Shown here in pieces: positions 4,871-8,261 of a stretch of 9,553 bases of DNA (within the stretch, counting starts at the first letter, position 1; every line of letters begins with the position of its first letter). The notes beneath the pieces are model-generated. The model saw only the letters and a program-made list of their open reading frames with translations, searched no databases and was not told the DNA's origin. The position numbers and the translations under genes are program-made. This DNA is from a virus (Duplodnaviria; Heunggongvirae; Uroviricota; Caudoviricetes), in the IMG/VR virus record IMGVR_UViG_648276671_000008; one strand, 5' to 3'.

Positions 4871-6365
4871 TCTTTCACACATTATTGCCGCAGCATTCAA
4901 TGAACCGCTGCTTCTGGAGCCCGCCTATGCGCGGGTTTTCTTTTGCGCGCTCGGGCGCGAGATGGGGGCAGCAAGTCTTTCGGTACCACAGCAGCAGGTA
5001 CAGCTTGATGCTCCCGGAATGCTGGCTGAAACGGACGAGTACATGGCCGGAGGTAAACGACCGGCCCGTGTTTACCGGGTGGTGAACGGTATTGCCGTAC
5101 TGCCGGTGACCGGCACGCTGGTGCACCGGCTGGGTGGTATGCGGCCATTTTCCGGAATGACAGGCTATGACGGTATTGTCGCCTGTCTTCAGCAGGCAAT
5201 GGCGGATAGCCAGGTGCGGGGCGTACTGCTGGACATTGACAGTCCGGGCGGGCAGGCCGCCGGCGCGTTTGACTGCGCTGACATGATTTACCGCCTCCGT
5301 CAGCAGAAGCCGGTCTGGGCACTGTGCAATGACACGGCCTGTTCTGCAGCCATGCTGCTGGCGTCGGCCTGCTCCCGACGGCTGGTTACCCAGACATCCC
5401 GTATCGGCTCCATTGGCGTGATGATGAGCCATGTCAGCTATGCCGGTCATCTGGCGCAGGCCGGTGTGGATATCACGCTGATTTACTCAGGGGCGCACAA
5501 GGTGGATGGCAATCAGTTTGAAGCGTTGCCGGAAGAGGTTCGCCAGGACATGCAGCAGCGGATTGATGCGGCGCGCCGGATGTTTGCCGAAAAAGTGGCG
5601 ATGTATACCGGTCTGTCTGTTGATGCCGTCACGGGAACAGAGGCCGCCGTTTTTGAAGGTCAGTCCGGCATTGAGGCCGGGCTGGCGGATGAATTAATCA
5701 ATGCGTCGGATGCCATCAGTGTGATGGCCACGGCGCTGAACAGTAATGTCAGAGGAGGCACTATGCCGCAATTAACTGCAACGGAAGCCGCCGCGCAGGA
5801 GAACCAGCGAGTGATGGGGATCCTGACGAGTCAGGAAGCGAAAGGACGTGAACAGCTTGCCACGATGCTGGCAGGACAACAGGGCATGAGCGTTGAACAG
5901 GCCCGGGCGATTCTGGCCGCGGCGGCACCGCAGCAGCCGGTGGCATCCACGCAGAGTGAAGCCGATCGCATTATGGCGTGTGAAGAAGCGAAAGGTCGTG
6001 AACAACTGGCGGCAACGCTGGCGGCGATGCCGGAGATGACGGTGGAAAAAGCCCGCCCGATCCTGGCTGCTTCACCGCAGGCGGATGCCGGACCCTCACT
6101 CCGTGATCAGATCATGGCACTGGATGAGGCAAAAGGGGCTGAGGCGCAGGCTGAACAGCTGGCTGCCTGCCCGGGAATGACTGTGGAGAGCGCCCGGGCT
6201 GTGCTGGCTGCGGGATCAGATAAGGCAGAACCGGTCTCTGCATCCACAACCGCCATGTTTGAACATTTCATGGCGAACCATTCACCGGCAGTGGTACAGG
6301 GTGGCGTGCCACAGACGTCAGCAGACGGTGATGCGGACGTAAAAATGCTCATGGCCATGCCATGA
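4860..6365 (+). CDS. C: Prohead protease / minor capsid protein gpC-like (S49 SppA-type serine protease domain fused to scaffold-like C-terminal region)
   Basis: 501 aa. The N-terminal region (AFNEPLLLEPAYARVFFCAL) and the protease core (GYDGIVACLQQA…GAFDCADMI…PVWALCNDTACSAAMLLASACSRRLVTQTSRIGSIGVMM…ITLIYSGAHKVDGN) track lambda gpC. Start inferred as GTG 4860, overlapping the B stop; the exact start is uncertain. Confidence 0.88.
   Translation: MRRNLSHIIAAAFNEPLLLEPAYARVFFCALGREMGAASLSVPQQQVQLDAPGMLAETDEYMAGGKRPARVYRVVNGIAVLPVTGTLVHRLGGMRPFSGMTGYDGIVACLQQAMADSQVRGVLLDIDSPGGQAAGAFDCADMIYRLRQQKPVWALCNDTACSAAMLLASACSRRLVTQTSRIGSIGVMMSHVSYAGHLAQAGVDITLIYSGAHKVDGNQFEALPEEVRQDMQQRIDAARRMFAEKVAMYTGLSVDAVTGTEAAVFEGQSGIEAGLADELINASDAISVMATALNSNVRGGTMPQLTATEAAAQENQRVMGILTSQEAKGREQLATMLAGQQGMSVEQARAILAAAAPQQPVASTQSEADRIMACEEAKGREQLAATLAAMPEMTVEKARPILAASPQADAGPSLRDQIMALDEAKGAEAQAEQLAACPGMTVESARAVLAAGSDKAEPVSASTTAMFEHFMANHSPAVVQGGVPQTSADGDADVKMLMAMP
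5763..6365 (+). CDS. nu3: Scaffolding protein Nu3-like, in-frame internal start within C
   Basis: ATG 5763 is in the C frame and preceded by AGAGGAGG 5 nt upstream (5751-5758). Lambda Nu3 is translated from an internal in-frame start in the 3' part of C. The product contains the three tandem repeats described in findings. Confidence 0.5.
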   Translation: MPQLTATEAAAQENQRVMGILTSQEAKGREQLATMLAGQQGMSVEQARAILAAAAPQQPVASTQSEADRIMACEEAKGREQLAATLAAMPEMTVEKARPILAASPQADAGPSLRDQIMALDEAKGAEAQAEQLAACPGMTVESARAVLAAGSDKAEPVSASTTAMFEHFMANHSPAVVQGGVPQTSADGDADVKMLMAMP

Positions 6366-6401
6366 AGTCAGTGCTGACCATCAATAGGAGGTTTTTACAA
6401 T

Positions 6402-6749
6402 ATGGTGACGAAAACCATCACTGAACAGCGTGCGGAAGTACGTATTTTTGCCGGTAATGATCCGGCTCATACCGCCACAGGCAGCAGCGGGATTTCCTCG
6501 CCAACACCGGCACTGACGCCCCTGATGCTGGATGAAGCCACCGGGAAACTGGTGGTCTGGGACGGACAGAAAGCCGGTAGTGCGGTTGGCATACTGGTAC
6601 TGCCGCTTGAAGGCACAGAGACGGCGCTGACGTATTACAAGTCGGGAACCTTTGCGACGGAGGCAATCCGCTGGCCTGAAAGTGTGGATGAACACAAAAA
6701 GGCCAACGCCTTTGCCGGCAGTGCCCTGAGTCACGCGGCGCTGCCGTAA
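6402..6749 (+). CDS. D: Head decoration / capsid stabilisation protein gpD-like
   Basis: 115 aa; NDPAHTAT…TPLMLD…KLVVWDG…AVGIL…YYKSGTF…WPE…AFAG matches lambda gpD (110 aa). AGGAGG lies upstream of ATG 6402. Confidence 0.85.
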   Translation: MVTKTITEQRAEVRIFAGNDPAHTATGSSGISSPTPALTPLMLDEATGKLVVWDGQKAGSAVGILVLPLEGTETALTYYKSGTFATEAIRWPESVDEHKKANAFAGSALSHAALP

Positions 6750-6758
6750 CACGTTATC

Positions 6759-6776
6759 AGGCCACCGCGGTGGCCT
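6759..6776. promoter_or_regulatory. Perfect 18-bp palindrome AGGCCACCGCGGTGGCCT in the D-E intergenic region
   Basis: Seen directly in the sequence, 10 nt after the D stop and ~30 nt before the E start. No strong T-tract follows, so it is more likely an RNA stability/processing hairpin or protein-binding palindrome than a terminator. Confidence 0.35.
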
Positions 6777-6806
6777 GACTGATTTCTGAATGAAAGGAAC
6801 TGATTT

Positions 6807-7835
6807 ATGGGATTGTTTACGACCCGCCAGTTACTCGGTTATACCGAACAAAAAGTGAAATTTCGTGCGCTGTTTCTGGAGCTGTTTTTCCGCCGTACAG
6901 TGAATTTCCATACCGAAGAGGTGATGCTGGACAAAATTACCGGAAAAACGCCGGTGGCGGCCTATGTCTCCCCGGTTGTTGAAGGAAAAGTGCTGCGTCA
7001 TCGTGGTGGTGAAACCCGCGTGTTGCGTCCGGGCTACGTCAAGCCGAAACACGAATTTAATTACCAGCAGGCGGTTGAGCGCCTTCCTGGTGAAGATCCA
7101 TCTCAACTGAATGATCCGGCTTACCGCCGTCTGCGTATCATTACCGATAACCTCAAACAGGAAGAGCACGCGATTGTCCAGGTGGAAGAAATGCAGGCGG
7201 TAAATGCTGTGTTGTATGGCAAATACACCATGGAAGGAGACCAGTTCGAGAAAATTGAGGTCGATTTTGGCAGGTCGACGAAGAATAACATCACTCAGGG
7301 TAGTGGTAAGGAGTGGTCAAAACAGGATCGTGACACGTTCGATCCTACACATGATCTTGACCTCTACTGCGACCAGGCCAGCGGTCTTGTGAATATTGCC
7401 ATTATGGACGGTACCGTCTGGCGTCTTCTGAATGGTTTTAAGCTGTTCCGCGAAAAACTGGATACCCGTCGCGGTTCAAATTCTCAACTCGAAACGGCAG
7501 TGAAAGATCTGGGCGCAGTGGTGTCCTTCAAGGGGTATTACGGCGATCTGGCCATTGTTGTGGCGAAAACGTCTTATATAGCAGAAGACGGTATCGAAAA
7601 ACGTTATCTTCCAGATAGCATGCTGGTTCTGGGGAATACTGCTGCAGATGGGATCCGTTGTTACGGTGCCATTCAGGATGCTCAGGCGTTGTCCGAAGGT
7701 GTGGTGGCCTCTTCCCGTTATCCGAAACACTGGCTGACGGTGGGGGATCCCGCCCGTGAATTTACCATGACGCAGTCCGCGCCGCTGATGGTGTTGCCGG
7801 ACCCGGATGAGTTTGTGGTGGTACAGGTGAAATAA
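6807..7835 (+). CDS. E: Major capsid protein gpE-like
   Basis: 342 aa (lambda gpE is 341 aa). Matches throughout: TTRQLL…EQKVKF, PGYVKPKHE, DPAYRRLRII, VEEMQAV, GKYTM, KLDTRRGSNSQLETAVKDLG, LPDSMLVLGNT, ARYPKHW, GDPAREFTMTQSAPLMVLPDPDEFV. AAAGGAA RBS before ATG 6807. Confidence 0.95.
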   Translation: MGLFTTRQLLGYTEQKVKFRALFLELFFRRTVNFHTEEVMLDKITGKTPVAAYVSPVVEGKVLRHRGGETRVLRPGYVKPKHEFNYQQAVERLPGEDPSQLNDPAYRRLRIITDNLKQEEHAIVQVEEMQAVNAVLYGKYTMEGDQFEKIEVDFGRSTKNNITQGSGKEWSKQDRDTFDPTHDLDLYCDQASGLVNIAIMDGTVWRLLNGFKLFREKLDTRRGSNSQLETAVKDLGAVVSFKGYYGDLAIVVAKTSYIAEDGIEKRYLPDSMLVLGNTAADGIRCYGAIQDAQALSEGVVASSRYPKHWLTVGDPAREFTMTQSAPLMVLPDPDEFVVVQVK

Positions 7836-7842
7836 TCCGTGA

Positions 7843-7872
7843 GCGGGGGCGAAATGCCCCCGTGTCTTTTTT
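7843..7872 (+). terminator. Rho-independent terminator-like hairpin immediately downstream of E
   Basis: GCGGGGGC-GAAAT-GCCCCCG forms a GC-rich stem (perfect 6-bp GGGGGC/GCCCCC core, 5-nt loop) followed by GTCTTTTTT. It starts 8 nt after the E stop codon and ends 15 nt before the FI start. Confidence 0.5.
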
Positions 7873-7886
7873 CACAGGGGGCTGAT

Positions 7887-8261
7887 ATGGCAACGAAAGA
7901 GCAAAATCTGAAACGGCTTGATGAACTGGCCCTGATTCTGGGGCGTGAGCCGGATATATCCGGGAGTGCCGCAGAGATAGCGCAGCGGGTGGCGGAATGG
8001 GAAGAGGAAATGCAGTCATCCGGCGATGATGTACAGGTTATGAATATGGATATCCGGGAGCGGGAAACTGCGGCTCATGATGTTCGTGAGGATACATCCG
8101 GTGCGTTAACGCGCATCAGAGTTCTGACCTGCCTCCATCTCTGTGGCATTGATGGTGAAACAGGAGAATCCGTTGAGCTTGCGGATGTTGGTCGCGTGAT
8201 TCTGATTATGTCCTCAGATGCAAAAACACACGTTGATGGCGGAATGGCTGTTTATGCGTGA
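7887..8261 (+). CDS. FI: DNA-packaging / head assembly protein gpFI-like
   Basis: 124 aa starting MATKEQNLKRL…, with AGGGGG 6 nt upstream. Position between E and FII, size and acidic central region fit lambda FI (132 aa), but sequence similarity is weaker than for neighbours. The track's 7839 GTG start would run through the hairpin and is rejected. Confidence 0.65.
   Translation: MATKEQNLKRLDELALILGREPDISGSAAEIAQRVAEWEEEMQSSGDDVQVMNMDIRERETAAHDVREDTSGALTRIRVLTCLHLCGIDGETGESVELADVGRVILIMSSDAKTHVDGGMAVYA

What the first reader, a model, noticed from the sequence alone, without database searches (positions are those of the whole stretch)
7836..7886. Strong terminator-like hairpin between the major capsid gene and FI
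A GC-rich stem-loop (GCGGGGGC/GAAAT/GCCCCCG) followed by a T6 run sits 8 nt after the E stop and is followed by the FI ribosome-binding site. The late operon is normally read through under antitermination, so a hairpin here more plausibly acts as a 3' stability element or partial terminator that raises E stoichiometry relative to FI, FII, Z and U. The ORF finder's extended FI reading frame runs through this structure, which argues for the downstream ATG 7887 start.
Basis: seen in the sequence. Interest (0 to 1): 0.4.

Follow-up and report, generated by a model that had tools for sequence, protein, structure and literature searches.

The report
Terminator-like hairpin after capsid gene
A strong RNA hairpin followed by a run of T sits just after the major capsid gene of this phage 21-like prophage; related phages keep an equivalent hairpin at the same spot, so it is a real, selected example of a known kind of signal whose exact role is still untested.

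Summary
GCGGGGGC/GAAAT/GCCCCCGT (7843-7863, -16.8 kcal/mol) lies 7 nt after the E stop codon. It is followed by GTC, T6 (7867-7872), a GGGGG ribosome-binding site and the FI ATG at 7887.

The window is a phage 21-type head module, and the identical element occurs in 1526 of 5426 complete E. coli genomes, always between the capsid gene and FI.

- **Stem conservation:** across 18 sequence variants, every stem substitution keeps pairing. Five are C-to-U changes giving G-U pairs, and one is a compensatory G:C-to-A:U change.
- **Wider conservation:** across E-family capsid genes down to 44% identity, 17 unrelated stem sequences occupy the same position. Fourteen of them have a T-rich tail.
- **Companion hairpin:** a second hairpin follows gene D (6757-6778).

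It is best read as a sub-canonical intrinsic terminator inside the late operon. Late polymerases probably read through it, because of Q antitermination and because the stop codon is only 7 nt from the stem. The hairpin would then cap and stabilise the upstream capsid mRNA and stop unmodified polymerase.

The choice between stabiliser, partial terminator and safeguard is not settled by any data here. This is a known kind of feature, so interest is low to moderate.

The parts
6402..6749 (+). Head decoration gene (lambda D / phage 21 shp)
   Evidence: Pfam HDPD, E = 2e-24. Annotated in the phage 21 records.
6757..6778 (+). Companion hairpin between D and E: TCAGGCCAC/CGCG/GTGGCCTGA, -16.8 kcal/mol, with a poor T tail (CTGATTTCTG)
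   Evidence: Second-best + strand hit. Energy. Equivalent hairpins occur upstream of E in lambda, Gifsy-1 and other lineages with at least 60% identity.
6807..7835 (+). Major capsid protein gene (lambda E / phage 21 gene 7), stop codon TAA at 7833-7835
   Evidence: Pfam Phage_cap_E, E = 1.8e-63. 98.6% DNA identity to phage 21. Annotation.
7843..7850 (+). 5' arm of the hairpin, GCGGGGGC
   Evidence: All 8 pairs are kept in all 18 variants.
7851..7855 (+). Loop, GAAAT
   Evidence: The loop varies freely among variants (GATAT, GGAAT, TAAAT).
7856..7863 (+). 3' arm of the hairpin, GCCCCCGT
7867..7872 (+). T6 run (U-tract), separated from the stem by GTC
   Evidence: Largely conserved in the 21-type variants. 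14 of 17 unrelated stem types have at least 5 T in the 10 nt after the stem.
7877..7881 (+). Ribosome-binding site of FI, GGGGG (GGAGG, GAGGG and others in variants)
   Evidence: Annotated as a ribosome-binding site in the phage 21 records. Variants.
7887..8261 (+). FI (DNA-packaging protein; phage 21 ORF1), true start ATG 7887
   Evidence: Pfam Packaging_FI, E = 1.1e-16, matching residues 3-120. Annotation. The upstream GTG extension is not conserved.

Best explanation
This is an intrinsic-terminator-type element (a GC-rich hairpin plus a U-run) embedded in the phage late operon directly after the major capsid gene.

**Shown here**
- The hairpin exists and is the strongest terminator-like site in the operon.
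- Selection maintains it.
- Unrelated hairpins, mostly with U-rich tails, occupy the same position in E-family capsid modules from phage 21, lambda and Gifsy-1 out to relatives at 44% identity.

**Inferred**
- During late growth, most polymerases pass it. They carry the Q antiterminator, and a ribosome finishing E, only 7 nt upstream, hinders closure of the stem.
- Once the polymerase has gone, the hairpin folds in the mRNA. Whenever a transcript ends there, or is cut in the U-rich single strand just downstream, the hairpin blocks 3'-to-5' exonucleases.
- The E segment (and, with the companion hairpin, the D segment) would then outlive the FI-FII-Z-U part. This adds to the high yield of capsid protein.
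- The same element terminates polymerases that are neither Q-modified nor followed by ribosomes.
For: - **Strength:** the core folds at -16.8 kcal/mol. It is the top hit in the window and in the 20-kb phage 21 late region.
- **Selection on the stem:** in 18 variants, 100% of core cells stay paired. All 5 single changes are C-to-U giving G-U, and there is one compensatory G:C-to-A:U change. The loop and the ribosome-binding site vary freely.
- **Conservation by position:** 254 loci give 62 distinct downstream sequences, which I grouped into 17 non-homologous stem types, including lambda's ATGGCCC/TTCG/GGGCCAT. The post-capsid site ranks among the few most stable 30-nt windows in 19 lineages (Fisher p about 8e-8, an approximation that treats lineages as independent).
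- **Tails:** they are T-rich, not A-rich (mean 5.9 T against 1.4 A in 10 nt, p = 0.0007).
- **Hairpins without a usable U-tract:** they persist in L006, L175 and the L190 group, and in this window's own D-E hairpin. This points to a role for the stem itself.
- **Stop-to-stem gap:** 7-8 nt here, with a median of 9 nt across types. A 5-bp gap reduced tR2 termination from about 90% to under 10% when the upstream gene was translated.
- **Effect of terminator hairpins on upstream mRNA:** a study of a library of terminator variants found transcript abundance on average 2.2 times greater with strong terminators than with weak ones (abstract).
Against: - No transcript 3'-end, half-life or read-through data for this phage or for lambda could be reached.
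- From my own recollection of Sampson et al. 1988 (not checked here), lambda late-gene output is set mainly by translation initiation, with roughly uniform transcription. If so, any stability effect is a modest add-on.
- The widespread U-rich tails (14 of 17 types) are not needed for a pure exonuclease barrier. They fit real termination at least as well.
- Other intergenic gaps of the same operon (I-J and J-stf in phage 21) also carry terminators. The capsid position is therefore not unique.
Confidence: 0.5

Rival explanations
1. It is a working partial terminator even in late infection. A fixed fraction of Q-modified polymerases stop at the U-run, so fewer transcripts reach FI, FII, Z and U. 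This sets the capsid-to-accessory stoichiometry at the level of transcription.
For: - A hairpin plus U-rich tail recurs in 14 of 17 stem types.
- It is the strongest terminator-like site of the operon.
- Partial termination is one of the options named for the analogous site in P22-like phage L.
- Weak terminators that tune phage gene dosage are documented in LUZ7 and cited for T7.
Against: - The late operon of lambdoid phages is transcribed by antiterminated polymerase.
- The stop codon lies 7 nt from the stem, a spacing that nearly abolished tR2 termination on a translated gene.
- The U-run is displaced by GTC, and the classical discriminant score is borderline (-5 to +6, against +41 for the J-stf terminator).
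- Some lineages have no U-tract at all.
Confidence: 0.15
2. It is a safeguard terminator. Its selected role is to stop polymerases that are not Q-modified from running into the downstream head-completion and tail genes. Such polymerases could start at spurious promoters or read through in the prophage state. It would have no role in late mRNA.
For: - Terminator-type anatomy is conserved.
- Phage 21 has further terminators between I and J and after J, so the operon is punctuated wherever there is intergenic space.
- This option is also named in the phage L paper.
- Untranslated transcripts would terminate efficiently.
Against: - It does not explain why the hairpin is kept where the U-tract is absent (L006, L175, the L190 group, and the window's D-E hairpin).
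- It does not explain why hairpins bracket exactly the two most abundant virion proteins.
- The element is sub-canonical compared with the real terminators of the same genome.
Confidence: 0.25
3. It is a translational device for FI. An extended helix (7836-7842 with 7872-7880) would occlude part of the FI ribosome-binding site and hold FI translation low or uncouple it from E.
For: The minimum-free-energy fold of the spacer extends the stem and pairs three G of the GGGGG site.
Against: - The outer helix is not conserved. Only 91% of cells are paired, 4 of 7 pairs depart only by broken cells, and there are no compensatory changes.
- It is absent from the L164 type and from other lineages.
- The 121-nt context fold is no better than shuffles (z = -0.19).
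Confidence: 0.05
4. It is a chance or neutral palindrome with no function.
For: Within the close 21-type family the formal covariation statistics are weak (58 of 500 shuffles reach the observed value), because the sequences are very similar.
Against: - About 5% chance of any such site anywhere in the window.
- All six stem changes preserve pairing.
- Non-homologous hairpins occupy the same position in 17 stem types.
Confidence: 0.03

Closest known systems
Intra-late-operon terminator after the procapsid (coat) gene module of P22-like phages (phage L, P22)
   Same: A predicted Rho-independent terminator inside a single-promoter, antiterminated late operon, at the end of the capsid gene block. 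[quoted passage not shown]
   Different: A different capsid family (P22 coat, not lambda E) and no sequence relation. That one follows a module, whereas this one follows the capsid gene itself and has a partner hairpin after D.
Lambda's own E-FI and D-E intergenic hairpins
   Same: Same genes and same positions: ATGGCCC/TTCG/GGGCCAT 2 nt after the E stop, and a hairpin with a T7 run after D. They are not annotated in J02459.
   Different: The stems are unrelated in sequence. In lambda the canonical U-run is on the D-E hairpin and the E-FI tail is weak (TGTTTCTCTG). In the phage 21 type it is the other way round.
T7 terminator T-phi after capsid gene 10, and the terminator after coat gene VIII of f1/M13 (my own knowledge, not checked here)
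   Same: A hairpin terminator directly after the most abundant coat protein gene. It is leaky, and is thought both to reduce downstream transcription and to stabilise the coat mRNA.
   Different: T7 uses its own polymerase and no processive antiterminator. The filamentous phages use nested transcripts from several promoters.
Intercistronic stabilising hairpins in operons (malE-malF REP, Rhodobacter puf) (my own knowledge, not checked here)
   Same: A stable stem-loop between cistrons protects the upstream segment from 3' exonucleases and gives unequal expression from one transcript.
   Different: REP elements are dispersed repeats with a consensus. This element occurs only between the capsid gene and FI and has a terminator-like U-run.
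Annotated phage 21 late-operon terminators (I-J at 15649-15673, J-stf at 19195-19222)
   Same: Same operon and same strand, intergenic, GC stem with a 4-nt loop.
   Different: Their U-tracts abut the stem (discriminant +41 for J-stf), whereas here the U6 is displaced (score -5 to +6). This probably explains why the annotators did not mark it.

Membership tests
Intrinsic (Rho-independent) terminator | GC-rich stem of about 5-14 bp with a short loop (3-8 nt) | tested here: met
   8 pairs (7 G:C/C:G plus 1 G-U), 5-nt loop, -16.8 kcal/mol.
Intrinsic (Rho-independent) terminator | U-tract of about 7-9 nt immediately 3' of the stem | tested here: inconclusive
   U6 is present but separated from the stem by GUC (UGUC from the last G:C pair). 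8 of 10 nt are T after the core. The discriminant score (formula recalled from d'Aubenton Carafa 1990) is -5 to +6, against +41 for the J-stf terminator.
Intrinsic (Rho-independent) terminator | Lies downstream of a stop codon on the transcribed strand | tested here: met
   7 nt after the E stop on the + strand. There is no hit on the - strand at this site.
Intrinsic (Rho-independent) terminator | Releases transcripts at the U-tract, in vitro or in vivo | not testable with these tools
   No transcript data were available. The lambda expression papers are not held.
3' stabilising (exonuclease-barrier) hairpin | Stable stem-loop at the 3' edge of the protected cistron, maintained by selection on pairing | tested here: met
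   100% pairing over 18 variants, with G-U and compensatory changes. The position is conserved with unrelated stems, including ones without a U-tract.
3' stabilising (exonuclease-barrier) hairpin | Upstream segment has a longer half-life, and decay intermediates end at the hairpin | not testable with these tools
   Needs a rifampicin chase or 3'-end mapping.
Any curated RNA family (Rfam 15) | Match to a covariance model | tested here: not met
   No match with E-value up to 1 anywhere in the window.
REP/BIME-type dispersed palindromes | Many dispersed copies per genome in varied intergenic contexts | tested here: not met
   Median of 1 place per E. coli genome (maximum 5). All listed places lie between the major capsid gene and FI.

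The most novel reading that the evidence does not exclude
The hairpins after D and after E would be a general, selected rule of lambda-E-type head modules. They would carve a long-lived capsid-protein mRNA segment out of a single antiterminated late transcript. The 7-9-nt stop-to-stem spacing would make the element a ribosome-gated terminator that fires only on untranslated RNA. Capsid stoichiometry would then be set partly after transcription. This would give a concrete, testable answer to the stated unknown role of intra-late-operon terminators.
Probability: 0.3. Interest if true: 0.5.

Novelty: new member of a known kind. Interest (0 to 1): 0.28.

Why it matters
Late operons of lambdoid phages are textbook single-promoter, antiterminated units. 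They nevertheless contain terminator-like hairpins whose roles the phage L paper describes as not known.

This analysis shows three things:
- The hairpin after the capsid gene is maintained by selection.
- It recurs with unrelated sequences across the whole lambda-E capsid family.
- It sits within a ribosome footprint of the stop codon.

Together these narrow the possible roles and give a simple mutational test. In practical terms, the result supports the ATG 7887 start for FI, and it flags an unannotated regulatory feature present in about 28% of complete E. coli genomes. It does not reveal a new mechanism.

Tried and rejected
**Explanations tested and set aside**
- **Rfam:** the scan at E-value up to 1 found nothing in the window.
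- **Extended outer helix covering the FI ribosome-binding site:** predicted by minimum free energy but not conserved.
- **Terminator on the minus strand or a bidirectional terminator:** no - strand hit and no A-tract upstream of the stem.
- **REP-like dispersed repeat:** rejected, because the element occurs only between the capsid gene and FI.
- **RNase III site:** an 8-bp stem is too short for the roughly 20 bp of double-stranded RNA that the enzyme needs (established knowledge).
- **Internal promoter making a D-E unit:** there is a promoter-like site at 6374-6401. The window has fewer such sites than its shuffles, and the -10 element lies between the annotated D ribosome-binding site and the D start codon, so a transcript from it would lack that site.
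- **E-FI read-through fusion:** E and FI are in the same frame, with 17 sense codons between them. Other variants have in-frame stops, so this is not conserved.
- **Small RNA derived from the E 3' end:** the lambda Hfq RIL-seq study reports only three phage sRNAs, and the passages read place none at E-FI.

**Literature that could not be used**
- Liu et al. 2013, Casjens and Hendrix 2015 and Sampson et al. 1988 are not held.
- Several full-text searches found no paper on this hairpin.

Full report
**What the window is**

The 901 bases around the finding are 98.6% identical to phage 21 (M81255, OL657228) and to several lambda-like coliphages. Pfam confirms the gene order:
- portal and protease/scaffold
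- D/shp (6402-6749)
- E (6807-7835)
- FI (7887-8261)
- FII, Z and U

Both phage 21 records start FI (ORF1) at the ATG that corresponds to 7887, with a ribosome-binding site just upstream. Neither record marks any terminator or stem-loop between the capsid gene and FI.

**The observation**

The sequence reads as follows:
- TAA at 7833-7835
- GCGGGGGC (7843-7850), GAAAT (7851-7855), GCCCCCGT (7856-7863)
- GTC, then T6 (7867-7872)
- GGGGG (7877-7881), then ATG at 7887

How strong and how unlikely it is:
- It is the first-ranked terminator-like site in the window and in the first 20 kb of phage 21.
- The core hairpin is worth -16.8 kcal/mol. The 51-nt spacer folds at -22 kcal/mol, z = -2.1.
- A hairpin plus T-run of this quality occurs once in the window. 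Only 5% of 300 dinucleotide shuffles produced one anywhere on either strand.
- There is no Rfam match.

The gap from the stop codon is 7 nt (8 nt to the first Watson-Crick pair). The T-run is separated from the stem by 3-4 nt.

**Variation among close relatives**

The exact element is in 1526 of 5426 complete E. coli genomes. In every listed place it lies between the major capsid gene and FI.

Among loci whose capsid protein is 93-100% identical, there are 18 distinct spacer sequences. Counted on the alignment:
- The 8 core pairs are paired in 100% of cells.
- Four pairs vary on one side only. The five changes involved are all C-to-U, and each gives a G-U pair.
- One pair shows a double, compensatory G:C-to-A:U change (L164, L004, L005).
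- No variant breaks a pair.
- The loop (GAAAT, GATAT, GGAAT, TAAAT) and the ribosome-binding site vary freely.

The formal shuffle statistics are weak, because the sequences are so alike (58 of 500 shuffles reach the observed value). Still, a run of six pair-preserving changes is what selection on pairing predicts.

The longer outer helix seen in the minimum-free-energy fold would cover part of the FI ribosome-binding site. It is not conserved: only 91% of cells are paired, and 4 of its 7 pairs depart only through broken cells.

**Variation among distant relatives**

I collected 254 loci that encode E-family capsid proteins 44-100% identical to the window's. They give 62 distinct downstream sequences. 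I grouped these into 17 stem types with unrelated sequences. Examples:

| Locus or phage | 5' arm / loop / 3' arm |
|---|---|
| lambda | ATGGCCC / TTCG / GGGCCAT |
| Gifsy-1 | AAAGGCCTG / ATT / CAGGCCTTT |
| L140 | GAAGGGCC / GCAA / GGCCCTTC |
| L238 | GGCCC / GTAA / GGGCC |
| L182 | TGGCGAGC / TGTGTGT / GCTCGCCA |
| L201 | GAGGGGC / TAAC / GCCCCTC |

Only one sequence (L195) lacks a hairpin.

Position and tails:
- In 19 representative loci, the site after the capsid gene is among the few most stable 30-nt windows of the locus, and it is the most stable in four of them. A rough Fisher combination gives p about 8e-8. This treats the lineages as independent, which is only approximately true.
- The 10 nt after the core stem hold on average 5.9 T against 1.4 A (p = 0.0007). 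Fourteen of 17 types have at least 5 T.
- L006 (Trabulsiella) has a -21.7 kcal/mol hairpin but only 1 T, L175 has 3 T, and the L190 group is followed by TAAAGG.

Both the hairpin and, usually, a U-rich tail are therefore recurrent. The hairpin is the more constant of the two.

**A companion hairpin**

A second hairpin sits between D and E (6757-6778, -16.8 kcal/mol) and lacks a good T tail. Lambda, Gifsy-1 and the other lineages with at least 60% identity also have a hairpin there. In lambda that one carries the canonical T7 run, while lambda's E-FI tail is weak. Hairpins thus bracket the genes for the two most abundant head proteins.

Phage 21 also has annotated terminators between I and J and after J. 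Their U-tracts abut the stem. The J-stf terminator has a discriminant score of +41, against -5 to +6 for the capsid hairpin (the formula is recalled from d'Aubenton Carafa 1990). That difference probably explains why the capsid hairpin was not annotated.

**How it most likely works**

What the anatomy shows directly:
- The element has the anatomy of a terminator.
- It lies in an operon that, in the phage 21 and lambda relatives, is transcribed by Q-modified, terminator-resistant polymerase (and established knowledge).
- The stop codon of a very heavily translated gene lies 7 nt from the stem.

An E. coli experiment is directly relevant. Moving a stop codon from 28 bp to 5 bp upstream of terminator tR2 cut termination from about 90% to under 10%. 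The effect vanished when the upstream gene was not translated.

I therefore infer the following:
- Little termination occurs here on translated, Q-driven late RNA.
- The hairpin folds behind the polymerase and acts as a 3' exonuclease barrier for the E segment. The barrier works either after the occasional termination event or after cleavage in the U-rich single strand downstream.
- The same element stops polymerases that are neither Q-modified nor followed by ribosomes.
- A study of a library of terminator variants found transcript abundance on average 2.2 times greater with strong terminators than with weak ones (abstract).

I could not separate the rivals without transcript data:
- **Genuine partial termination:** disfavoured by the spacing, the displaced U-run and antitermination.
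- **Pure safeguard terminator:** does not explain the hairpins that lack U-tracts.
- **Translational control of FI:** the required outer helix is not conserved.
- **Chance:** excluded by the comparative data.

From memory, Sampson et al. 1988 attributed lambda late-gene ratios mainly to translation initiation. If that is right, any mRNA-level effect is a secondary one. I could not check this paper.

**Comparison with what is known**

- Predicted terminators inside late operons, at the end of the procapsid module, are described for P22-like phage L. The paper says explicitly that their roles are not known.
- Leaky terminators that tune phage expression are documented in LUZ7 and cited for T7.
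- T7's T-phi after gene 10, the f1 terminator after gene VIII, and intercistronic stabilisers (mal REP, puf) are functional analogues recalled from my own knowledge.

This is a further member of a known kind, in a very common prophage module.

**The FI start**

The 140-aa GTG ORF (7839-8261) runs through the hairpin only because the spacer happens to be open and in frame with both E and FI. The evidence favours ATG 7887:
- In the L164/L005 variant, an in-frame TAA sits in the loop.
- In Gifsy-1 the spacer has an in-frame TGA.
- Pfam coverage of FI starts at residue 3 of the ATG form.

**Verdict**

The mechanism is ordinary in kind. The comparative rule (a hairpin after the capsid gene across the E family, close to the stop codon, with a partner after D) is the useful addition.

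Noticed in passing
window 6757-6778: A second strong hairpin (TCAGGCCAC/CGCG/GTGGCCTGA, -16.8 kcal/mol) lies between the decoration gene D and the capsid gene E. It has no good T-run here, but lambda has a canonical T7 run at the equivalent site. Hairpins therefore bracket the capsid gene.
   Followed up: partly
window 7833-7889: E and FI are in the same reading frame, separated only by the TAA stop and 17 sense codons. This is why the ORF finder extends FI to GTG 7839. The open spacer is not conserved in other variants.
   Followed up: yes
proteins P0002 (21-type) and P0098 (lambda-type): Database proteins that join the C-terminus of E directly to an internal part of FI, in frame. They lack the stop codon, the hairpin and the start of FI. 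They could be natural deletions, decayed prophages or assembly artefacts. P0104 and P0107 have the same two Pfam domains.
   Followed up: partly
window 7890-7950 compared with loci L071, L082, L162 and L164: Downstream of an almost invariant E gene and hairpin, the 5' part of FI occurs in at least three clearly different allelic forms. In the PhiR12-type phages the match to the window covers only 74% of the 901-base query, in two pieces. The E-FI junction may therefore be a mosaic boundary.
   Followed up: no
window 6374-6401: A sigma-70 promoter-like site (CTGACC, 16-nt spacer, TACAAT) lies in the short gap between the protease/scaffold gene and D. Its -10 element lies between the annotated D ribosome-binding site and the D start codon, and the window has fewer such sites than its shuffles. 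It is probably not functional.
   Followed up: partly
window about 5102-5131 and 5659-5688: The most stable 30-nt folds of the whole window (-21 and -22 kcal/mol) lie inside the protease/scaffold gene. The phage 21 record annotates three Tri box repeats of unknown function in the scaffold-coding part of the same gene, at about window 5830-6224. No T-runs follow the two folds.
   Followed up: no
locus L195 (IMGVR_UViG_3300028892_000253), just after the capsid gene stop: This is the only relative in which the hairpin is missing. The 5' arm GGGCGGG is kept, but it is followed by an A-rich stretch and a longer spacer in place of the 3' arm, as if an insertion or replacement had occurred.
   Followed up: no
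locus L255 (phage 21 OL657228) 15649-15673 and 19195-19222: The curated phage 21 record annotates canonical terminators inside the late operon between I and J and after J. Terminator-like elements therefore punctuate the operon at most of its few intergenic gaps.
   Followed up: partly
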